Assembly: GCA_964016885.1 (NCBI GenBank) | Contig: CAXHJY010000235.1 | Span: forward strand, 1-64,000 | Origin: Eledone cirrhosa | Lineage: Eukaryota | Length of the DNA stretch: 64,000 nucleotides | Direction of reading: 5' to 3' | Part shown: positions 3,003 through 56,437 of the stretch, piece after piece | How positions within the stretch are numbered: the first letter of the stretch is position 1 | How the letters are laid out: each line of letters begins with the position of its first letter | Program-made: the position numbers and the translations under genes | Notes under the pieces: generated by a model | What the model was told of the DNA's origin: nothing | The model's input: the letters and a program-made list of their open reading frames with translations, nothing else | Database searches by the model: none

Positions 3003-4194
3003 TCATCATCATCATCATCATCAACGTTTAACGTCCGTGTTCCACGCTTGCATGGATTTGGACGGGGGTATTCCCACTTGAGGCAAGAGTGATTGTCTTG
3101 CTCGCATAGGACTGTCTGGCAGGTTTTCTACAGTTGGATGCCCTTCCTAACACCAACCACATTTACAGTGTGGGTCTGGGACGTTTTTACCGTGTTGCCT
3201 ACACGGCCACATTACAGCGTGGACTGTGTGTTTTTTTGTCGTGACACCTACACGATCTCATTTGTTTCGGCCTGGATGGTGTGGCACCAACATAACTTTA
3301 CATAGAAGGGTGGGGGGGGGTGTATTTTGTTAGAGCTGCCTACTGACTGTAGTAGGTTTTACTTTGTATTTAGGTAAGGCGGGTCTTCTCTATTACTGAG
3401 TACCGCCAAAGGTCTCGGTCCAGTGACATTGTCTTGGTGAGGTGTAAGTGTGTGAGGTCGGAGTTTATCAGCTCGTCCCAGGTTTTTCTGGGTCTGCCTA
3501 TTCCGTGGCTACCGTCTATCTTTATTGCCCTGCACTTTGTTATACAGCTATCGTCCTTCATGCGCATCACGTGACCATACCAACGTAGCCTTCTCTCTAG
3601 TAAACAACATCTGATCCCTCTTATTTCTAATTTTTTCCTTAGTTCGTTTATGCTTTGTCGTTCACGTATATTACTATTACACATCCAGCGGAGCATGCAA
3701 GCTTCGTTTCTCTCTAGTCTGCGTATATCCTCTGCACACAATGCCCAGGTCTCACTGCCATGCAACATTGATGTTCGTATGCAGGCATCGTACAGCCTGC
3801 CTTTCATTTTTAGGGAGAACCCTTTAGCGGCTAATAGTGGTATAAGCTCTCTGAATTTTTTCCACCCAGTTCTGACTCTAGCTACTGTACTTTCAGAGCA
3901 CCCTCCCCCACTGCTGATTTTATCACCCAGGTAACGGAAGCTGTCCACTATTTCTATAGAACCCTCTGCGCAGTTGAAAGAGCTAGTATTTTACGGGCAC
4001 TTGCTGCTACTTATTTCCCCAGAACACCGGCCACATGTAAAATCTATGTTCTTAGTTAGCTTACCTGTGATCCCACTACATCTTTTATGCACCCAAACTT
4101 TGCATTTGGGACACAAAATGGAATTTCTACCTACGCCTTTCCTACACTCTGCGCATGGCCACTTCCCGGAGGGGACCGCCGCCTTATTTTCTTT
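3003..4194 (-). mobile_element. RTE-clade LINE, 5'-truncated copy 1 (PHD-like finger, C-terminal ORF, 3' UTR, (GAT)n tail)
   Basis: ORF 3370-3948 has FRYLG, LHGSETW, RRLRWYGHVMR and GRPRKTW, typical of the RTE ORF C-terminus. The (ATC)n at 3002-3023 is the (GAT)n tail. Flanked by (TA)n on both sides. Confidence 0.93.
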
Positions 4195-5949
<1,755 letters not shown>

Positions 5950-6013
5950 AATATTAAAAAAATAATGAATAAAACAATGAAACAGTTCCTTATATTAAAC
6001 AAAAAAAGTTCAT

Positions 6014-6158
6014 TATTTAACGATCGTTTCTAGGATATATATGTGTTAGAATTGGCATGCATATTCAACAGATCTATGTACAAAATTATACAAAATTATA
6101 CAAACTATCAAGATTAAATATACATACCAAACACACACATATGCCGTCTTCAGAAATA
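6014..6158 (-). ncRNA. Type I hammerhead ribozyme with about 115-nt extended stem II (solo PLE pLTR-like unit, about 5950-6160)
   Basis: Minus strand reads tattt-CTGAAGA-[long hairpin]-GAAAC-gatc-GTT-aaata. Stem I is tattt/aaata and the stem III region is the palindrome AACGATCGTT. The stem II arms pair extensively, with G-U wobbles. Confidence 0.75.
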
Positions 6159-7240
<1,082 letters not shown>

Positions 7241-7449
7241 GTATTAAGTATACTATTTATGGTTATGCAAATACAAAAACCTTTTGTAGTTATATATATT
7301 TTTTTAAACCCTAAATAGTGGTAGGCAGTAATGTATTACTACCTTATTACCAGTAAGTTAAATAGCTCAATGTAATAACATCAGATGATTTACCGAGCAG
7401 TTATATGAATTATAAGAATCAAAGAACTGTTCAAAACATTTTTATCCTT

Positions 7450-8643
7450 CTTTACATTTACGTGGATACCAAGTCTAATCACCCTAGATCAATATTAAAC
7501 TCTATCTCTAAGGGGGTATCCAATAGAATCTCTAATCTATCCTATGACGCAAACATATTTAGCAAAAACTCGCAATATTATAATCAAGCATTAGCTATAA
7601 TTTAGAGATTGAGTTCCTACCTAAGAAAACACATAGCTACAACATCATCTCGCACAATATGTCCATGGGGAAACCTAGTAATATGAATAGCAACCACATG
7701 CACACTAAAGCGGAGGGTGCCACCAAAAGTAACCATTACCACAGAAACTACTGTAGTACATTAGGAGGAAACAACACACCAGACACTAAAAACAAAAATA
7801 GAAGAAATAATACATTTTTCCACCCTCCTTTCAACCTAAACGTCTCCACCAACATACCTAGGGCTTTCTTCTCACTACTAGATAAAAACTTCCCTCTAGG
7901 ACACAAGTACCATAACCTTTTAAACAAAAACATTATTAAAATCTCATACTCTACGACGCCTAACTTAGCATACCACATAGCTAGCAGCAATAAAAGTAAA
8001 ATTAATTCTTACTTCCAACAAACGAAATCACAACAGGAGGTAAACCTTCAAAATACCTCTGTAGCAAGCAACCCTAATAACGGCAGTAATAATAGAAATA
8101 ACACTAGTATAAGAAATAACACCGGGGTCGACAACCCAAATGTCCAAAATCCTATAGCTACCACCCGGACTTCTGCACAGCATTATAACCAGCAGACTAA
8201 CACCCAGGATAATTGTAACTGTATAGCTAATAGAACCTGCCCTTTAGATAATAAATGCCTAACCAAGGATATCATATACTCTTGCACCGTCACAACTAGC
8301 AACTCTTCAGAAACCTATGTAGGCTCCACTTCTAACTGCTTCAAAATCAGATATAATTCGCACATCCACTCGTTCAAAAAGCACAGTCTAGCTAACTCCA
8401 CCTCACTATCTAGCTACATACACTATCTAAAAACTAAAAATAAACCATACACACTCAAATGGGAAGTGATAGGCAGCGCGACTTCGTACAAACCACCTAA
8501 TAAATTTTGTAACCTCTGTATACTAGAGACCCACACTATTATTTTCTCTAACCGTAACCTACTTAACAAAAAAATCTGAAGTGTTTGCAACTTGCCAGCA
8601 CCGCTTCAGACATTCCTTCCAAAACTTTAAGCCCAATATATAG
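7450..8643 (+). pseudogene. PLE ORF C-terminal half: RT thumb/linker plus GIY-YIG endonuclease, with frameshifts
   Basis: YVDTKSNHPRSIL, FHPPFNLNVSTNI, KISYSTTPN, CNCIANRTCPLDNKC, DIIYSC..TYVGST..FKIRYNSH, LKW, CNLC and LLNK, then after an A-run frameshift near 8570 SEVFATCQH. The frame is also broken near 7605-7660. Confidence 0.88.
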
Positions 8644-10058
8644 CAATGTCGGACTTGAACCAGACACCACCTCTAGCATCAAACACCATCGGCACACCTT
8701 ATACCACATCCCCACACTCATTGATCTAATATAACACAAATCGGGACATCCCTCTAGAACCCTTCACAGTAGGAATACTCCTTTGTACTTCTACTTTAGG
8801 TGTGACTACATCCAGTTGCTTGAACTGCACTACACCACTTTATAGTTAATGTAAAATTTAAGCATTGGATTGATTGTATTGTTGGTGCTATGCGGAGGAA
8901 GTGCCATCGTTGGTTAAATGGAAAACTAATTAATCTAGTAACGTTGATGAGCTGTACGACCGGTATGCTGAGTGCAGTGAATGTATTGCAGGTGGTGTAT
9001 GGGTTGTACATATATGTATGATTTGATGGTCGGATCGGAGACATGAGGAGTGTGGATTGACCTCTGGTTGGCCCTGGTGATGATTATCTTTCGACATCCA
9101 ATATAGCATGCACTGACCCGGAACTTACCAGGGATCATTGTGTGTTGAAGTGATTCTGCAATCACCTTGCCTGGTTCTTTGAGTAGACTGCAATCACAAT
9201 GATCAGTAATTTAGAAATCTCGCTCGTCGTGTCTAATATTCATTTGTGGCACTCTACGATGGCGGTTAATCACCATAATAAGAACACCTTCAGCACAGCT
9301 TAATAGACTACTTTATAGTTAAAACACTTTAAATTTTTAGAAATCTTTCAGAAACTGCGCATAACCATATAAGTTAGGGACTATTTTGAGACAGAATTTA
9401 ATAGTTAGTAATAGAAACCACTGAGTTACCTCCCCTTAGCCACACACACACTTCCGGGTAATATTTCGATGTCGATTCTCGCAACCTAACATCCTCCTGT
9501 ATTGAGCTAAAGAACATCAGACTACGATTCTCTAACTGGATTGTCAAACGCCCAATATCGAATCGTCGTGGATTATGTGAGGGGCATATAATCTGAAAAA
9601 TACGCTCCCCAGACTATGAAAATGTCGCAGTGCATGAAATCCATATCATCGCTTCGCTACGCATTTCCAATATTTTTAATGCTTACATTATTTTTAATAC
9701 TTATATTATTTCTCCACACACAGGCTATAACAATCATATAAAGAATTCATTACCAGATCAACCCCCTTAACACTCTTGATTACCTGCTTAAGTGCTTCTA
9801 TTACACGTAACTCTCTGCCACACTATATAAACAAGACGCACGTGCTTGCCACACATATAACCATTGCACTCTATAACCGCTTAATTTCATGTATTTTAAC
9901 CTGTATTTTTGATTATATCTTTTAATATGAATGTAATCTCTAAATGTATACTGCCACACTAAATGCTGTAATGAATGTTGACCCACAAAATTTGCATATG
10001 TATCTGTATGTCTCTTGGGTGAAAAGGAGGTCATATAAGTGTTCATTCAATAATAAAT

Positions 10059-10105
10059 TGCTCCGAAGAATCCAAACCTCGGTTTGGAGGAAACAGTTGT
10101 AAGCA
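10059..10105 (+). ncRNA. Minimal type I hammerhead ribozyme of the PLE pLTR (variant core)
   Basis: tgct-CCGAAGA-a-tccaaacc-tc-ggtttgga-g-GAAAC-agtt-GTA-agca. Stem II is 8 bp and stem I 4 bp, with predicted cleavage after 10101. It has a U4C change and an A.G mismatch at 10.1/11.1. Confidence 0.75.
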
Positions 10106-10147
10106 TAAAAATGTTTTGAACAGTTCTTTGATTCTTATAATTCATAT

Positions 10148-10556
10148 GTATATATATATAAATAAATGTATATATATATATATGTGTATGTATATATATA
10201 TATATATATATATGTGTATGTATATATATATATATATATATATGTGTATGTATATATATATATGTATGTGTATGTATATATATATATGTATGTGTATGTA
10301 TGTATATATATATATGTATGTGTATGTATGTATATATATATATGTATGTGTATGTATGTATATATATATATGTATGTGTATGTATGTATATATATATATG
10401 TATGTGTATGTATGTATATATATATATGTATGTGTATGTATGTATATATATATATGTGTATGTATGTATATATATATGTGTATGTATATATATATATATA
10501 TATGTGTATGTGTATGTATGTATATATATATGTGTATGTATATATATATATATATA

Positions 10557-10849: not shown

Positions 10850-12115
10850 ATCATCATCATCGTCATCAACGTTTAACGTCCGTGTTCCACGCTTGCATGG
10901 GTTTGGACGGGGTTAGTCCCACTTGAGGCAAGAGTGATTGTCTTGCTCGCATAGGACTGTCTGGCAGGTTTTCTACAGTTGGATGCCCTTCCTAACACCA
11001 ACCACATTTACAGTGTGGGTCTGGGAGGTTTTTACCGTGTTGCCTACACGGCCACATTACAGCGTGGACTGTGTGTTTTTTTGTCGTGACACCTACACGA
11101 TCTCATTTGTTTCGGCCTATGGCGCGGCACCAACATAACTTTACATAGAATGGGGTGGGGGTGGTGGTGGTGGGACGGGGTGTATTTTGTTAGAGATGCC
11201 TACTGGTTGGAGTAGGTTTTACTATATATTTAGGTAAGGCGGGTCTTCTCTGTTACTGAGTACCGCCAAAGGTCTCGGTCCAGTGACATTGTCTTGGAGA
11301 GGTGTAAGTGTGTGAGGTCGGAGTTTATCAGCTCGTCCCAGGTTTTTCTAGGTCTGCCTATTCCGTGACTACCGTCTATCTTTATTGCCCTGCACTTTGT
11401 TATACAGCTATCGACTTTCATGCGCATCACGTGTCCATACCAACGTAGCCTTCTCTCGAGTAAACAACATCTGATCCCTCTTATCTCTAATTTTTTCCTT
11501 AGTTCGTTTATGCTTTGCCGTTCACGTATATTACTGTTACACATCCAGCGGAGCATGCAAGCTTCGTTCCTCTCTAGTCTGCGTATATCCTCTGCACACA
11601 ATGCCCAGGTCTCACTGCCATGCAGCATTGCTGTTCGTATGCAGGCATCGTACAACCTGCCTTTCATTTTTAGGGAGAACCCTTTAGCAGCTAATAGTGG
11701 TATAAGCTCTCTGAACTTTTTCCAACCAGTTCTGACTCTAGCTACAGTACTTTCAGAGCACCCTCCCCCACTGCTGATTTTATCGCCCAGGTAACGGAAG
11801 CTGTCCACTATTTCTATAGAACCCTCTGCGCAATTGAAAGAGCTAGTATTTTGTGGGCACTTGCTGCTACTTATTGCACCAGAACACCGGCCACAATGTA
11901 AAATCTATGTTCTTAGTTAGCTTACCTGTGATCCCACTACATCTTTTATGCACCCATACTTTGCATTTAGGACATAAAATGGAGTTTCTACCTACGCCTT
12001 TCCTACACACCGAGCACGACCATTTCCCAGAAGGGACCGCCGCCTTGTTTTCTTTCCTACAAACTAGAACTTTGGTCTTAGCCAGGTTAATTTTAAGTCC
12101 TTTTGACTCTAGGCC
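10850..12115 (-). mobile_element. RTE-clade LINE, 5'-truncated copy 2
   Basis: ORF 11230-11808 is nearly identical to 3370-3948, with the same 3' UTR and (GAT)n-type tail. Confidence 0.93.
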
Positions 12116-12890: not shown

Positions 12891-14306
12891 CCTGGCTAAG
12901 ACAAAAGTTCTAGTTTGTAGGAAAGAAAATATGGTGGCAGTCCCATCTGGGAAATGGCCATGCTCAGTGTGTAGGAAAGGCGTAGGTAGAAACTCCATTT
13001 TATGTCTCAAATGCAAAGTATGGGTGCATAAAAGATGTAGTGGGATCACAGGTAAGCTAACTAAGAACATAGATTTTACATGTGGCCGGTGCTCTGGTGC
13101 AATAAGCAGCAGCAAGTGCCCACAAAATACTAGCTCCTTCAACTGCGCAGAGGGTTCTATAGAAATAGTGGACAGCTTCCGTTACCTGGGTGACAAAATC
13201 AGCAGTGGGGGAGGGTGCTCTGAAAGTACAGTAGCTAGAGTCAGAACATCAGCAGTGGGGGAGGGTGCTCTGAAAGTACAGTAGCTAGAGTCAGAACTGG
13301 ATGGAAAAAGTTCAGAGAGCTTATACCACTATTAGCCGCTAGAGGGTTCTCCCTAAAAATGAAAGGCAGGTTATACGATGCCTGCATACGAACAGCAATG
13401 CTGCATGGCAGTGAGACCTGGGCATTGTGTGCAGAGGATATACGCAGACTAGAGAGGAACGAAGCTTGCATGCTCCGCTGGATGTGCAATAGTAATATAC
13501 GTGAACGGCAAAGCATAAACGAACTAAGGAAAAAATTAGAAATAAGAGGGATCAGATGTTGTTTACTCGAGAGAAGGCTACGTTGGTATGGACATGTGAT
13601 GCGCATGAAAGACGACAGCTGTATAACAAAGTGCAGGGCAATAAAGATAGACGGTAGCCACGGAGTAGGCAGACCCAGAAAAACATGGGACGAGCTGATA
13701 AATTCCGACCTCACACGCTTACACCTCTCCAAGACAATGTCACTGGACCGAGACCTTTGGCGGTACTCAGTAATAGAGAAGACCCGCCTTACCTAAATAC
13801 AAAGTAAAAACCTACTACAGTCAGTAGGCATCTCTATCAAAACACACCCCCGTCCCACCACCTCCACCCCACCCACACCGCCCCTTTCAATGTAAAGTTA
13901 TGTTGGCCCCACAACATCCAGGCCGAAACAAATGAGATCGTGTAGGTGTCACGACAAAAAACACACAGTCCACGCTGTAAATGTGGCCGTGTAGGCAACA
14001 CGGTAAAAACCTCCCAGCCCCACACTGTAAATGTGGTTGGTGTTAGGAAGGGCATCCAGCTGTAGAAAACCCGCCAGACAGTCCACGCTGTAATGTGGCC
14101 GTGTAGGCAACACGGTAAAAACCTCCCAGCCCCACACTGTAAATGTGGTTGGTGTTAGGAAGGGCATCCAACTGTAGAAAACCCGCCAGACAGTCCTATG
14201 CGAGCAAGACAACCACTCTTGCCTCAAGTGGGAAAACCCCCGTCCAAACCCATGCAAGCGTGGAACACGGACGCTAAACCTGATGATGATGATGATGATG
14301 ATGATG
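12891..14306 (+). mobile_element. RTE-clade LINE, 5'-truncated copy 3, with two internal tandem duplications
   Basis: [22 protein letters not shown] and ORF 13359-13796. The (GAT)n tail lies at 14281-14306. Duplications at 13198-13297 and 13965-14189. Confidence 0.93.
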
Positions 14307-34362: not shown

Positions 34363-34478
34363 CATACTCTGCTCCATAGGAGCATAGAGTGCTCAACCGG
34401 CATACCGCATATGGATCCATCTTAGCTACCATAAGACATATATGTATATATATGTATATATATATATGTGTATATATG

Positions 34479-35793
34479 TCCTGCAGGCAATAACGGAGGA
34501 GTTTAAGACCGGATGCCCATGGGAACTCCTGTATGCTGATGACCTCGCACTCATAGCTGAATCTATGGTAGAACTAGAGAATAAATTCCAAACCTGGAAG
34601 CAGGGACTAGAAAGAAAGGGCCTCAAAGTCAACATGACAAAGACTAAGGTCCTTGTAAGTAGACGAGAAAACAGAACCCAGACCCCCTCAGGGAAATGGC
34701 CTTGCTCAGTATGTAGGAAAGGTGTAGGTAGGAACTCCATTCTCTGCCCCAAATGCAAACAATGGGTACACAAGAGATGTAGCGGGATCTCAGGAAGCTT
34801 AATTAAGAATGTAGGATTCACATGCAGCAGCTGTGCTGAGACAGCAAACAGCCACAGGAAACAAGTACCACCAATCTCTGGGAGGGCCCTGTAGAAACAG
34901 TTGACAGCTTCTGCTACCTAGGTGACCGAATTAGCAACGGAGGTGGGTGTTCAGAAAGTGCAATAACTAGGGTAAGAACGGGATGGAAGAAGTTTAGGGA
35001 ACTACTACCACTGCTAGCTGCAAAAGGCTTCTCCCTCAGAATGAAAGGCAGACTGTATGATGCGTGTATCCGAACAGCGATGTTGCATGGTAGTGAGACC
35101 TGGACGCTGAAGGTGGAAGACTTACGGAGATTAGAGAGAAACGAAGCCTGCATGCTCCGATGGATGTGTAATAGTAATATACGCGAACGACAAAGCATAA
35201 ATGAATTGAGAGAGAGACTGAGCATAAGAGGAATCAAATGCTGTGTGCAGGAGTGGCGGTTGCGCTGGTATGGACATGTGATGCGTATGAAGGATGATAG
35301 CTGCATAAAAAGGTGCAGAGCACTAGAAGTAGATGGAAACCGCGGAGTGGGGAGACCCAAGATGACCTGGGATGAGGTGATAAAAGCCGACCTTACCCAA
35401 TTACACCTCTCAAAGACAATGACACACGACCGTGACTTCTGGCGTCACGCAGTAATACAGAGTACCAGACCTCCCATGGGTACAAGCTGAAGCATATAGA
35501 CAATATGCCCCCACACCCCCCACCGCAAGGTGGTCGTGGAGGTGCCACGGCAAAAAAGCACCCAGCCCACACTGTAAAGTGGACGTGTAGGCGCCACGAA
35601 AAAGCACCCAGCACTCACTGTAAATGAGGTTGGTGTTAGGAAGGGCATCCAGCTGTAGAAATCAAGCCAAATCAGTTCCTGTATGAGCAAGGCATGGTCA
35701 GCCGGCCAGACACTGCCCACAACAGAACAACCCGTCTAACCCATGCTAGCGTGGAAGAACGGACGTAAAAGGGTGATGATGATGATGATGATG
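34479..35793 (+). mobile_element. RTE-clade LINE, related subfamily, 5'-truncated, includes YADD
   Basis: CPWELLYADDLALIAES (YADD 34532-34543), GLKVNMTKTKV, the C4HC3 finger, ORF 35041-35490 and a (GAT)n tail. Frameshift near 34870-34890. Confidence 0.93.
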
Positions 35794-50994: not shown

Positions 50995-53900
50995 GACACC
51001 ACTACAACCACTAACTACCACTGCCAATATTAACCCCACAACCACCACCACAACCACTAACTACCACTGCCAATATTAACCCCACAACCACCACCACTAC
51101 CACTAACTACCACTGCCAATATTAACCCCACAACCACCACCACAACCACTAACTACCACTGCCAATATTAACCCCACAACCACCACCACTACCACTAACT
51201 ACCACTGCCAATATTAACCCCACAACCACCACCACAACCACTAACTACCACTGCCAATATTAACCCCACAACCACCACCACTACCACTAACTACCACTGC
51301 CAATATTAACCCCACCACCACCACCACTACCACTAACTACCACTGCCAATATTAACCCCACAACCACCACCACAACCACTAACTACCACTGCCAATATTA
51401 ACCCCACAACCACCACCACTACCACTAACTACCACTGCCAATATTAACCCCACAACCACCACCACAACCACTAACTACCACTGCCAATATTAACCCCACA
51501 ACCACCACCACTACCACTAACTACCACTGCCAATATTAACCCCACCACCACCACCACTACCACTAACTACCACTGCCAATATTAACCCCACAACCACCAC
51601 CACAACCACTAACTACCACTGCCAATATTAACCCCACAACCACCACCACAACCACTAACTACCACTGCCAATATTAACCCCACAACCACCACCACAACCA
51701 CTAACTACCACTGCCAATATTAACCCCACCACCACCACTACCACTGCCAATATTAACCCCACCACCACCACCACTACCACTAACTACCACTGCCAATATT
51801 AACCCCACCACCACCACCACTACCACTAACTACCACTGTCAATATTAACCCCACAACCACCACCACAACCACTAACTACCACTGCCAATATTAACCCCAC
51901 CACCACCACCACTACCACTAACTACCACTGCCAATATTAACCCCACCACCACCACCACTACCACTAACTACCACTGCCAATATTAACCCCACCACCACCA
52001 CCACTACCACTAACTACCACTGCCAATATTAACCCCACCACCACCACCACTACCACTAACTACCACTGCCAATATTAACCCCACCACCACCACCACTACC
52101 ACTAACTACCACTGCCAATATTAACCCCACCACCACCACCACTACCACTAACTACCACTGCCAATATTAACCCCACCACCACCACCACTACCACTAACTA
52201 CCACTGCCAATATTAACCCCACAACCACCACCACAACCACTAACTACCACTGCCAATATTAACCCCACCACCACCACCACTACCACTAACTACCACTGCC
52301 AATATTAACCCCACCACCACCACCACCACCACTACCACTAACTACCACTGCCAATATTAACCCCACCACCACCACCACTACCACTAACTACCACTGCCAA
52401 TATTAACCCCACCACCACCACCACTACCACTAACTACCACTGCCAATATTAACCCCACCACCACCACCACTACCACTAACTACCACTGCCAATATTAACC
52501 CCACCACCACCACCACAACCACTAACTACCACTGCCAATATTAACCCCACCACCACCACCACTACCACTAACTACCACTGCCAATATTAACCCCACCACC
52601 ACCACCACTAACTACCACTGCCAATATTAACCCCCACCACTACCAACTACCACTGCCAATATTAACCCCACCACCACCACCACTACCAACTACCACTGCC
52701 AATATTAACCCCACCACCACCACCACAACCACTAACTACCACTGCCAATATTAACCCCACCACTACCAACTACCACTGCCAATATTAACCCCACCACCAC
52801 CACCACTACCAACTACCACTGCCAATATTAACCCCACCACCACCACCACAACCACTAACTACCACTGCCAATATTAACCCCACCACTACCAACTACCACT
52901 GCCAATATTAACCCCACCACTACCAACTACCACTGCCAATATTAACCCCACCACCACCACAACCACCAACTACCACTGCCAATATTAACCCCACCACTAC
53001 CAACTACCACTGCCAATATTAACCCCACCACCACCACCACTACCACTAACTACCACTGCCAATATTAACCCCACCACTACCAACTACCACTGCCAATATT
53101 AACCCCACCACCACCACCACTACCAACTACCACTGCCAATATTAACCCCACCACTACCAACTACCACTGCCAATATTAACCCCACCACTACCAACTACCA
53201 CTGCCAATATTAACCCCACCACTACCAACTACCACTGCCAATATTAACCCCACCACCACCACCACTACCAACTACCACTGCCAATATTAACCCCACCACT
53301 ACCAACTACCACTGCCAATATTAACCCCACCACCACCACAACCACCAACTACCACTGCCAATATTAACCCCACCACTACCAACTACCACTGCCAATATTA
53401 ACCCCACCACCACCACAACCACCAACTACCACTGCCAATATTAACCCCACCACTACCAACTACCACTGCCAATATTAACCCCACCACCACCACCACAACC
53501 ACTAACTACCACTGCCAATATTAACTCCACCACCACCACCACCACAACCACTAACTACCACTGCCAATATTAACCCCACCACCACCACCACCACAACCAC
53601 TAACTACCACGGCCAATATTAACCCCACCACTACCAACTACCACTGCCAATATTAACCCCACCACTACCAACTACCACTGCCAATATTAACCCCACCACC
53701 ACCACCACCACTACCAACTACCACTGCCAATATTAACCCCACCACTACCAACTACCACTGCCAATATTAACCCCACCACTACCAACTACCACTGCCAATA
53801 TTAACCCCACCACTACCAACTACCACTGCCAATATTAACACCACCACTACCAACTACCACTGCCAATATTAACCCCACCACTACCAACTACCACTGCCAA

Positions 53901-55003
53901 TATTAACCCCACCACCACCACCACCACTACCAACTACCACTGCCAATATTAACCCCACCACTACCAACTACCACTGCCAATATTAACCCCACCACTACCA
54001 ACTACCACTGCCAATATTAACCCCACCACTACCAACTACCACTGCCAATATTAACACCACCACTACCAACTACCACTGCCAATATTAACCCCACCACTGC
54101 CAATATTAACCCCACCACTACCAACTACCACTGCCAATATTAACCCCACCACTACCAACTACCACTGCCAATATTAACCCCACCACCACCACCACCACTA
54201 CCAACTACCACTGCCAATATTAACCCCACCACTACCAACTACCACTGCCAATATTAACCCCACCACTACCAACTACCACTGCCAATATTAACCCCACCAC
54301 TACCAACTACCACTGCCAATATTAACCCCACCACCACCACCACCACTACCAACTACCACTGCCAATATTAACCCCACCACCACCACCACCACTACCAACT
54401 ACCACTGCCAATATTAACCCCACCACTACCAACTACCACTGCCAATATTAACCCCACCACCACCACCACCACTACCAACTACCACTGCCAATATTAACCC
54501 CACCACTACCAACTACCACTGCCAATATTAACCCCACCACTACCAACTACCACTGCCAATATTAACCCCACCACTACCAACTACCACTGCCAATATTAAC
54601 ACCACCACTACCAACTACCACTGCCAATATTAACCCCACCACTACCAACTACCACTGCCAATATTAACCCCACCACTACCAACTACCACTGCCAATATTA
54701 ACCCCACCACTACCAACTACCACTGCCAATATTAACCCCACCACCACCACCACCACTACCAACTACCACTGCCAATATTAACCCCACCACTACCAACTAC
54801 CACTGCCAATATTAACCCCACCACTACCAACTACCACTGCCAATATTAACCCCACCACTACCAACTACCACTGCCAATATTAACACCACCACTACCAACT
54901 ACCACTGCCAATATTAACCCCACCACTACCAACTACCACTGCCAATATTAACCCCACCACTACCAACTACCACTGCCAATATTAACCCCACCACTACCAC
55001 TAC
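50995..55003. repeat. ~4-kb C-rich minisatellite; 46-bp units grading to 34-bp units
   Basis: Near-invariant core actaccactgccaatattaacccc with a variable (acc)n spacer. Confidence 0.97.
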
Positions 55004-55112
55004 TTCATATTTCTTAAACCCTCAATTTATCACCCCCACCCACTATCCTTTTCAACTTGGTTCCTTCAAGTGACATTTCAATGTGACAAGTTTAAAGTAC
55101 AGTTTAGAGCTA

Positions 55113-56115
55113 CTGGTGGTGGTAGTGGTTGTATGGAGGCGTGGTGGTGGTGGTGTGGTGGTGGTGGTGGTTTTATGGAGGTGTGGTGGTGGTGGTGGTT
55201 GTATGGAGGTGTGGTGGTGGTGGTGGTTTTATGGAGGTGTGGTGGTGGTGGTGGTTGTATGGAGGTGTGGTGGTGGTGGTGGTTGTATGGAGGTGTGGTG
55301 GTGGTGGTGGTTGTATGGAGGTGTGGTGGTGGTGGTGGTTGTATGGAGGTGTGGTGGTGGTGGTGGTGGTAGTGGTTGTATGGAGGTGTGGTGGTGGTGG
55401 TGGTGGTAGTGGTTGTATGGAGGTGTGGTGGTGGTGGTGGTTGTATGGAGGTGTGTAGGTGGTGGTGGTGGTAGTTGTTGTGTGGCAGCGTGGTGGTTAT
55501 GGTTGTTGTGGTATGGAAGTGTGGTGACGGTAGTGGTTGTTGTGGTATGGAAGTGTGGTGACGGTAGTGGTGGTTGTGGTATGGAAGTGTGGTGACGGTA
55601 GTGGTGGTTGTGGTATGGAAGTGTGGTGGTTGTGGTATGGAAGTGTGGTGACGGTAGTGGTGGTTGTGGTATGGAAGTGTGGTGACGGTAGTGGTGGTTG
55701 TGGTATGGAAGTGTGGTGACGGTAGTGGTGGTTGTGGTATGGAAGTGTGGTGACGGTAGTGGTGGTTGTGGTATGGAAGTGTGGTGACGGTAGTGGTGGT
55801 TGTGGTATGGAAGTGTGGTGACGGTAGTGGTGGTTGTGGTATGGAAGTGTGGTGACGGTAGTGGTGGTTGTGGTATGGAAGTGTGGTGACGGTAGTGGTG
55901 GTATGGTATGGAAGTGTGGTGACGGTAGTGGTGGTTGTGGTATGGAAGTGTGGTGATGGTAGTGGTTGTTGTGGTATGGAAGTGTGGTGGTTGTGGTATG
56001 GAAGTGTGGTGATGGTAGTGGTTGTTGTGGTATGGAAGTGTGGTGACGGTAGTGGTGGTATGGAAGTGTGGTGATGGTAGTAGTGGTGGTAGTGGTGGTT
56101 GATGTGGAAGTGTGG
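55113..56115. repeat. G-rich minisatellites: 28-bp unit (55113-55460) then 34-bp unit (55500-56110)
   Basis: ggttgtatggaggtgtggtggtggtggt and ggtatggaagtgtggtgacggtagtggtggttgt. Confidence 0.95.
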
Positions 56116-56437
56116 TGGGAAATAAAATAGCAGCAGTGGTAGCTTGGCTGGTGCTAGCTTAATGGTGTAGGCAGTAGCATGCTGGTGGTGGCCATGATAT
56201 GAAACTATAGTAATGAAGGTGGTAGCAGCATAGTGGCGGTGGTGGTGGAATTGCTCTCCATCAGTTTCAATGAGTGTCCTCAGCATGGTCATAATCAAAT
56301 GACTGACACCAATAAAAGTTTTTAAAAGTGTGTATACAGTATATAGGTGTATGTGTGTGTATATATATAGATGTGTAGATCTTTGAGTGTATATATGTGT
56401 AGACGTGTGTATATATATAAATATTTATATAGATGTG

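What the first reader, a model, noticed from the sequence alone, without database searches (positions are those of the whole stretch)
5950..6160. Stand-alone hammerhead ribozyme with a ~115-nt, wobble-stabilised stem II inside (TA)n
Seen on the minus strand: an intact core CUGAAGA...GAAAC-gauc-GUU, a 5-bp stem I, and a palindromic stem III region (AACGAUCGUU). Stem II is a long two-part hairpin. In the inner 16-bp helix (uggUaugUauauUuaa-like arm versus uugaauauGcauGcca) all three non-Watson-Crick positions are G-U pairs, which work only on this strand and so argue for selection on the RNA. A ~65-nt AT-rich tail follows, and (TA)n flanks both ends. Established: PLE pLTRs carry minimal type I HHRs with palindromic stem III loops proposed to act as dimers. 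Inference: this is a non-coding HHR-plus-tail unit in which stem II carries a long cargo hairpin, possibly a Dicer/ADAR substrate or RT recognition element. I do not know of a description of this architecture in cephalopods.
Basis: partly seen in the sequence, partly recalled or inferred. Interest (0 to 1): 0.8.

Follow-up and report, generated by a model that had tools for sequence, protein, structure and literature searches.

The report
Retrotransposon hammerhead with oversized stem II
This is the clipped end of a very abundant jumping gene whose hammerhead RNA motif (predicted to self-cut, untested) has a side arm about five times longer than in described relatives, kept across four diverged families, and its copies break off at one sharp spot that likely marks the start of the RNA being copied.

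Summary
The sequence observation is right: type I hammerhead core (C3 at 6153, minus strand), 116-nt stem II, palindromic stem III, GUU site at 6019/6018, microsatellite flanks. It is not stand-alone. It is a 5'-truncated pseudo-LTR of an autonomous RT + GIY-YIG Penelope-like element with Hydra-clade motifs. Its 3' half has 8,100 exact matches in this genome, plus 7,065 and 369 for sister families. The 'AT-rich tail' is the start of the element's 5' UTR, ending at the shorter of two fixed 3' ends. New relative to the literature I could read: (1) stem II is about 100-116 nt in four families, with double changes in 6 of 9 basal pairs and an invariant apical module, against at most about 24 nt in 26 listed Hydra hammerheads; (2) 33 of 88 copies end within 20 nt at stem I, 9-10 nt behind a conserved AAUAAA, but 0 of 16 do so at the distal hammerhead; (3) a tail hairpin is predicted to out-compete stem I. 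The G-U bias is family-specific and derived by A-to-G change. This copy keeps only 5 of 10 stem I pairs and is probably inactive. No RNA data could be examined.

The parts
6154..6158 (-). Remnant of stem I 5' strand; 5'-truncation point (-5 from C3). Untruncated copies have a 10-nt strand preceded by AATAAA at -21..-16
6147..6153 (-). Hammerhead core 5' half CUGAAGA (C3-A9)
6031..6146 (-). 116-nt stem II domain: C.A, G-U, G-C, C.C base; 13-bp outer helix (6142-6130 with 6047-6035); 16-bp inner helix (6129-6114 with 6068-6053); apical module (GAU 6109-6107 with AUC 6073-6071, then UGUA/UACA)
6019..6030 (-). Core 3' half GAAA, palindromic stem III region, GUU triplet; predicted cut between 6019 and 6018
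   Evidence: dimer model from PMC4209133
5960..6018 (-). Tail hairpin: stem I 3' strand (6018-6009) pairs instead with downstream boxes, one of them (5969-5960) an exact copy of the master's stem I 5' strand; start of the element's 5' UTR
5946..5959 (-). Short 3' end of the element (+71 to +73 from the cut site), joined to (TA)n; inferred to be the proximal of two RT start sites (the other near +205)
   Evidence: PMC11167929
5857..5947 (.). (TA)n/(TG) microsatellite target, downstream flank
6159..7230 (.). (TA)n/(TG) microsatellite target, upstream flank

Best explanation
The motif is the 5'-truncated end piece (pseudo-LTR) of a Hydra-clade Penelope-like retrotransposon, whose hammerhead carries a conserved 100-116-nt stem II and is likely held inactive by a downstream hairpin so that the element's reverse transcriptase would copy through it. 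Shown: family identity, copy number, two fixed 3' ends (+70, +205), inverted long/short pairs, (TA)n targets, covarying long stem II, sharp 5' end at -7/-6. Inferred steps: (a) the RT-endonuclease nicks both strands in (TA)n and starts internally at +70 and +205 on uncleaved RNA; (b) the tail hairpin captures the stem I 3' strand, so cutting is limited to a co-transcriptional, dimer- or protein-assisted window; (c) about 40% of templates are short RNAs that begin 6-7 nt before the core, most likely the downstream product of poly(A)-site cleavage behind the conserved AAUAAA (my odds about 0.4), else a pLTR transcription start (about 0.3); copying such an RNA from +70 gives exactly this copy; (d) the long stem II is kept as an RNA structure, most likely a binding platform for the element's protein. 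This copy is probably a dead product.
For: Copies 97-99% identical to the unit sit at the 3' end of RT + GIY-YIG ORFs on the same strand, about 3.5 kb after the stop (L042), and the tail runs on to the ATG 352-360 nt after the cut site in 5 of 5 tandem units. ORF motifs RWR, DKT, CxCx5C, CxxC, CxH match the Hydra definition. Exact pattern counts 8,100 / 7,065 / 369, reversed controls 0. 17 of 21 inverted pairs have one long and one short 3' end, 4 long+long (tandems), 0 short+short. 33 of 88 5' ends lie in -12..+7 and 3 of the remaining 45 in the next 248 nt, about 79-fold per base; 0 of 16 at the hammerhead upstream of an ORF, p = 9e-4. AATAAA at -21..-16 in 130 of 134 untruncated copies while the 7-nt spacer differs by family. 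Stem II median 114, 101, 103, 102 nt in families F1-F4; identity to F1 0.72, 0.60, 0.47 (shuffled 0.45-0.52). 98.9% of 377 cells paired, 6 of 9 basal pairs changed on both sides, apical pairs invariant or one-sided. Stem I probability 0.69-0.98 before the tail is made and 0 after; hammerhead fold 9.5 kcal/mol above the minimum.
Against: No cleavage, expression or RNA-end data. C10.1.A11.1 and GUU are expected to be suboptimal (recalled). The AAUAAA-to-end distance (9-10 nt) is at the short limit for poly(A) cleavage (recalled), and junction microhomology hides whether the end is -7 or -6. F4 is old: 6 full copies, median z -1.7, and no consistent AATAAA, so its long stem rests on length and partial pairing. 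The 21 rows were hand-picked from 135 distinct stem II sequences and the structure was derived from them; the two relatedness-robust measures did not beat the shuffles (100/500 and 69/500). Within F1, pair-keeping bias among transitions alone is not significant (9/0 against 13/7, p = 0.07). The function of stem II is not tested at all.
Confidence: 0.7

Rival explanations
1. Stand-alone non-autonomous ribozyme unit (retrozyme- or SINE-like) that propagates from its own short copies.
For: Solo short copies in (TA)n recur (L138, L158, L167, L168, L184 among 88) and head-to-head short pairs are common; an internal promoter is known for Drosophila Penelope (PMC2377424).
Against: Short copies share stem II haplotypes with long, ORF-linked copies; junctions differ from locus to locus, so each was made anew; no direct-repeat monomers of the retrozyme kind were seen; stem I is crippled.
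Confidence: 0.08
2. The 5' hot spot is a transcription start (initiator-like TCA+1TT) in the pseudo-LTR; short copies are integrated strong-stop-like cDNAs primed at the 5'-proximal start sites of the mRNA.
For: Modal apparent end is the A at -7 (47 of 91 truncated copies, 7 at -6); 14 of 47 have G before it; an initiator-like TCACT is reported in a rotifer pLTR (PMC3846280).
Against: 0 of 16 ORF-continuing units begin at -7, which needs the added assumption that such mRNAs are polyadenylated before the next hammerhead; several of the G bases are explained by the partner arm, and none of the (TA)n-flanked solo copies has one.
Confidence: 0.3
3. The hot spot is a reverse-transcriptase stall or cDNA snap-back caused by the long hairpin and stem I.
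For: Ends fall on the stem I 5' strand in F1-F4 whatever the stem II length; three close pairs of the short-stem family meet about 60-110 nt further upstream (from coordinates).
Against: The same structure at the distal hammerhead stopped 0 of 16 copies; no snap-back product was found among F1/F2 copies held (the 11 hits were native F3 sequence); only 10 of 88 ends lie inside stem II.
Confidence: 0.12
4. The long stem II is a neutral by-product of the element's tendency to make inverted duplications, and its G-U pairs are fixed A-to-I edits.
For: Inversions inside stem II occur (L083); rare A-to-G changes are enriched in the helices (16 events on 14 A sites against 7 on 27 elsewhere; against T-to-C p = 0.03) and one A-to-G recurs on at least four haplotype backgrounds; a short-stem family with the same stem III exists (125 matches, control 6).
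Against: Length is held near 100 nt across families down to shuffle-level identity; outer helix replaced by G-C pairs in register; C.C at 10.4/11.4 and the apical module are kept. A wider A-to-G test was not significant (26 against 21, p = 0.14) and C-to-U is also raised in helices. Editing may explain the wobbles, not the arm.
Confidence: 0.12

Closest known systems
Hydra clade of C-terminal EN+ Penelope-like elements, including Hydra-1_Obim (Craig et al. 2021, PMC8557442)
   Same: RT + C-terminal GIY-YIG ORF with RW[K/R], DKT, CxCx5C, CxxC, CxH; (TA)n targets; hammerhead at the 3' end; non-canonical pair at the base of stem II (U.U in many listed rows).
   Different: Stem II domain 100-116 nt against at most about 24 nt in 26 listed Hydra rows (longest in the whole table about 52 nt, a spike-moss element); unit about 6.4-7 kb with a 3.5-kb 3' UTR against 'generally < 3 kb'; tail extension about 135 nt against 30-40.
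[quoted passage not shown]
   Same: Type I core, palindromic stem III suited to dimers, mostly solo truncated copies, opposite-strand pairs 100-700 bp apart.
   Different: Their helix II is 6-8 bp with G10.1-C11.1 and helix I 4-5 bp; here a multi-helix arm of about 30 bp with C.A at its base, a 10-bp stem I and a competing tail hairpin.
Poseidon element PAc of Anolis (Frangieh et al. 2024, PMC11167929)
   Same: Two internal RT start sites defining an optional tail; both target strands primed; uncleaved RNA is the main template; ribozyme needs the protein.
   Different: There the start sites are 30-40 nt apart inside the ORF; here about 135 nt apart in the 5' UTR, and a fixed 5' end just before the hammerhead is seen.
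Metazoan non-LTR retrozymes (Cervera and de la Pena 2020, PMC7229834)
   Same: Short, AT-rich, non-coding, type I hammerhead, high copy number.
   Different: Retrozymes are tandem repeats of about 300 bp with no ORF; these are solo or head-to-head pieces of an autonomous element.

Membership tests
Hydra-clade PLE | Single ORF, RT followed by C-terminal GIY-YIG | tested here: met
   L042/L034 ORF with YRDD and SYIG...R...H...E...N. Read by motif; Pfam gave no passing hit for P0001; the L042 copy has one in-frame stop.
Hydra-clade PLE | RWK motif, DKG changed to DKT | tested here: met
   RWR at 37, DKT at 115 (definition)
Hydra-clade PLE | CxCx5C linker; CxxC and CxH beside E and N; no CCHH | tested here: met
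   Residues 671, 769, 797; no cysteine pair inside the GIY-YIG core by inspection
Hydra-clade PLE | Insertion into (TA)n | tested here: met
   Nearly all terminal junctions
Hydra-clade PLE | Placement in an RT phylogeny with reference Hydra proteins | not tested
   Reference proteins were seen only as supplement text; no tree was built
Hydra-clade PLE | Short element (< 3 kb) with canonical hammerhead | tested here: not met
   Tandem units 6.4-7 kb (spacing), 3.5-kb 3' UTR, 116-nt stem II; a descriptive trait, hence 'variant'
PLE pseudo-LTR | Tandem/inverted arrangement, optional tail at one end | tested here: met
   17 of 21 pairs long+short, 4 long+long
Type I hammerhead ribozyme | Core CUGAnGA, GAAA, NUH with stems I-III | tested here: met
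   kept in F1-F4. Per-column core counts are partly circular because copies were picked by core motifs
Type I hammerhead ribozyme | G10.1-C11.1 at the base of stem II | tested here: not met
   C.A in F1-F3, A-U in F4 and U-A in the short-stem family; many listed Hydra motifs also lack it
Type I hammerhead ribozyme | Self-cleavage 3' of NUH | not testable with these tools
   No RNA run listed; folding predicts stem I absent in this copy
Non-LTR retrozyme | Non-autonomous tandem repeats, no own ORF | tested here: not met
   Belongs to an ORF-bearing element
Non-LTR retrozyme | Circular RNA intermediates | not testable with these tools
   No RNA reads

The most novel reading that the evidence does not exclude
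These elements split one transcript into two jobs at the hammerhead: poly(A) cleavage 6-7 nt before the core releases the mRNA upstream, and the downstream fragment, shielded by a 100-nt stem II that the RT binds and held uncut by the tail hairpin, is itself reverse transcribed at both target strands, seeding thousands of ribozyme-only mini-elements. The hammerhead would then act mainly as an RT-binding switch.
Probability: 0.25. Interest if true: 0.75.

Novelty: new variant of a known kind. Interest (0 to 1): 0.52.

Why it matters
What hammerheads do in Penelope-like elements is stated to be unclear (PMC8557442, PMC11167929). These families give testable handles: a long arm under structural constraint with an invariant tip, a predicted two-state switch, and a base-precise template start recorded in thousands of genomic copies. 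More than 15,000 such motifs lie in one genome, and this one is missed by Rfam, so descriptor-based counts with short stem II limits probably undercount ribozyme motifs. The copies may also record A-to-I editing of the template.

Tried and rejected
Rfam: no hammerhead among the 150 of 260 whole-window rows shown or the 7 local rows. The neighbouring GIY-YIG element at 7230-10150 is not the parent: 35% identity over 264 aa, own short hammerhead-like motif. Assembly duplicate: the 100% copy on C14 has other flanks. Splice acceptor at the hot spot, as in D. virilis: no AG there. Second hammerhead cut at UUC: stem III cannot pair. cDNA snap-back: none. Cap-derived G: inconclusive. Sequencing runs: no RNA holder listed; this is no evidence on expression. 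Four runs laid gave short contig pieces only; they pointed to the GUA sister family, and two pieces break at -7/-8, too few to count. Earlier-finding look-ups by sequence and by long word list gave nothing. Literature searches showed no description of a roughly 100-nt stem II in a PLE hammerhead or of this 5' hot spot; Lunse et al. 2017 was not held and supplements of PMC4209133 and PMC11167929 were not read, so prior mention there is not excluded.

Full report
Observation. On the minus strand the window holds CTGAAGA at 6153-6147, a 116-nt insert, GAAAC-GATC-GTT at 6030-6019 and AAATA at 6018-6014, which pairs with 6158-6154. The region folds at z = -4.2 against 200 shuffles, with a 13-bp outer and a 16-bp inner helix, the latter with three G-U pairs. 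The insert folds at -42.4 kcal/mol on this strand and -16.9 on the other. A 71-nt tail and microsatellites flank it. The description is accurate.

What it belongs to. Many are inverted pairs, adjacent or 5-10 kb apart. In fetched stretches the unit lies at the 3' end of long ORFs on the same strand. In L042 the ORF starts at 3052, ends near 5487, and C3 follows at 8997; in 5 of 5 tandem units the sequence after the GUU site runs 352-360 nt to the ATG. The protein has RWR, DKT, YRDD, CxCx5C, a GIY-YIG core, CxxC and CxH, the features that define the Hydra clade in PMC8557442 (section 11 read), whose members insert into (TA)n and include Hydra-1_Obim from an octopus (supplement parts 1, 2, 52, 53 read). 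Exact patterns for the 3' half count 8,100 (GUU family, F1), 7,065 (GUA pattern: F2 and most of F3), 676 (F3, overlapping) and 369 (F4), with 0 for reversed controls.

The long stem II is a conserved family trait. Among distinct stem II sequences held (92, 26, 11, 6 for F1-F4) median lengths are 114, 101, 103 and 102 nt; identity to F1 is 0.72, 0.60 and 0.47, the last at shuffle level. On 21 hand-picked F1-F3 rows 98.9% of 377 cells in 18 named pairs are paired, 6 of 9 basal pairs change on both sides, and the apical GAU/AUC and UGUA/UACA pairs barely vary; slid controls fall to 19-62%. The pair-count and pair-type measures did not beat the shuffles (100/500, 69/500), and the inner helix was left out because F3 is misaligned there. 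A C.C mismatch after three basal positions is kept in F1-F3 and, by eye, in F4; pair 10.2-11.2 reads A-U, G-U or G-C by family. Stem I covaries too. In the 26 Hydra rows of the published table the stem II domain is at most about 24 nt, and a short-stem family with the same stem III exists in this genome (125 matches, control 6).

The wobble argument. Strand asymmetry is strong only in F1. Four of four polarisable helix G-U pairs of the window copy are A-U in most F2 rows. Among 224 F1 copies, shared helix variants keep pairing 9 of 11 times (one of the two breaks looks like an alignment artefact) against 13 of 37 for rare ones, p = 0.013, but p = 0.07 for transitions alone. Rare A-to-G changes are raised in helices (16 on 14 sites against 7 on 27; p = 0.03 against T-to-C) and one recurs on at least four backgrounds (one carrier is an inversion), while a broader test gave p = 0.14. 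Pairing is conserved; G-U as such is not, and ADAR editing of the template is a possible source.

Ends of the copies. Of the first 100 listed F1 hits I analysed 88 in 60 regions (5 were held under other ids and the last 7 not fetched). 33 end at -12..+7 from C3, 28 of them at -8..-4; 10 end inside stem II; 3 in the next 248 nt; 42 run beyond 260 nt. That is about 79-fold per base, in 21 of 60 regions. Over all loci, 47 of 91 truncated core-bearing copies match to -7 (this set includes loci chosen by likeness to the window); palindromic and (TA)n junctions leave -7 and -6 indistinguishable. The window copy (-5) is one of these. In 20 of 309 units whose tail continues towards the ORF, 16 carry an upstream hammerhead and none of the 16 begins at the hot spot (p = 9e-4). 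So the spot behaves like the 5' end of a class of templates, not a structural stall. AATAAA stands at -21..-16 in 130 of 134 untruncated F1-F3 copies, with a family-variable spacer. At the 3' side copies end near +70 or +205, one of each in 17 of 21 inverted pairs, as expected from two internal RT start sites used on both target strands in the anole element (PMC11167929, parts 1-2 of 4 read).

Folding switch. In an untruncated copy stem I (10 bp) is predicted at 0.69-0.98 while the tail is absent and at 0 once +75 is present; the hammerhead fold then costs 9.5 kcal/mol, because the tail holds an exact copy of the stem I 5' strand. A like hairpin is predicted in F3, the short-stem family and some F2/F4 copies. 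The window copy, with 5 pairs left, does not form stem I even without the tail. This fits the report that uncleaved RNA is the main template and that the ribozyme needs the protein, and the low activity of minimal PLE hammerheads (PMC4209133, parts 1-2 of 4 read).

Mechanism. Shown: identity, counts, ends, covariation. Inferred: priming at +70/+205 in (TA)n, the tail-hairpin switch, a short template starting at -7/-6 (poly(A) cleavage product about 0.4, promoter about 0.3, stall or other the rest), and a protein-binding role for the arm. Poly(A) spacing rules and hammerhead sequence preferences are recalled, not from a call.

Literature. Also seen as passages only: PMC2377424, PMC3846280, PMC7229834, PMC10085705. 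Eight searches showed no account of this long stem II or hot spot; Lunse et al. 2017 was seen only as a reference title. An earlier scan note on a shark mentions short copies starting at the ribozyme, an unchecked lead that the hot spot may be general.

Verdict. A real motif in a known setting, with an undescribed, constrained oversize arm and an informative truncation signature: new variant of a known kind, interest 0.52.

Noticed in passing
window 7230-10150 (+), ORF 7584-8579, motif about 10058-10106: A different 5'-truncated Hydra-like element (35% aa identity to the parent family) with an inverted end piece at 7230-7445 and its own short hammerhead-like motif, core U4 changed to C, AATAAA just upstream.
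   Followed up: partly
L085, L119, L198, L206-L208, L210, L221; L043, L254: A SINE-like element is inserted at -6 in the stem I 5' strand in 8 copies (both arms of one pair, so present in the template) and in the stem I 3' strand in two others; its end motif also occurs at window 47341, 50342, 63899.
   Followed up: partly
L042 5487-8997; L036: 3.5-kb microsatellite-rich 3' UTR and an asparagine/threonine-rich linker between RT and endonuclease, recalling inserts reported in rotifer Penelope elements.
   Followed up: no
window 5510-5855: tRNA-derived SINE-like repeat (Rfam tRNA match 5520-5577, 31 bits) next to the downstream flank.
   Followed up: no
window 3370-3990, 11230-11904, 13239-13796, 34388-35490: Several 3' fragments of a LINE (RTE-like by recall), interrupted by or abutting microsatellites.
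   Followed up: no
window 50997-56118: Long 46/34-bp ACC-rich minisatellite followed by an oppositely oriented TGG-rich array.
   Followed up: no
PMC8557442 File S2: Several listed Hydra hammerheads have AATAAA or ATTAAA within about 25 nt upstream of the core, so the poly(A)-signal/hammerhead adjacency may be clade-wide; seen by eye only.
   Followed up: no
L003, L139, L155, L195: Head-to-head junctions carry short templated repeats of the arm ends, as in microhomology-mediated end joining.
   Followed up: partly
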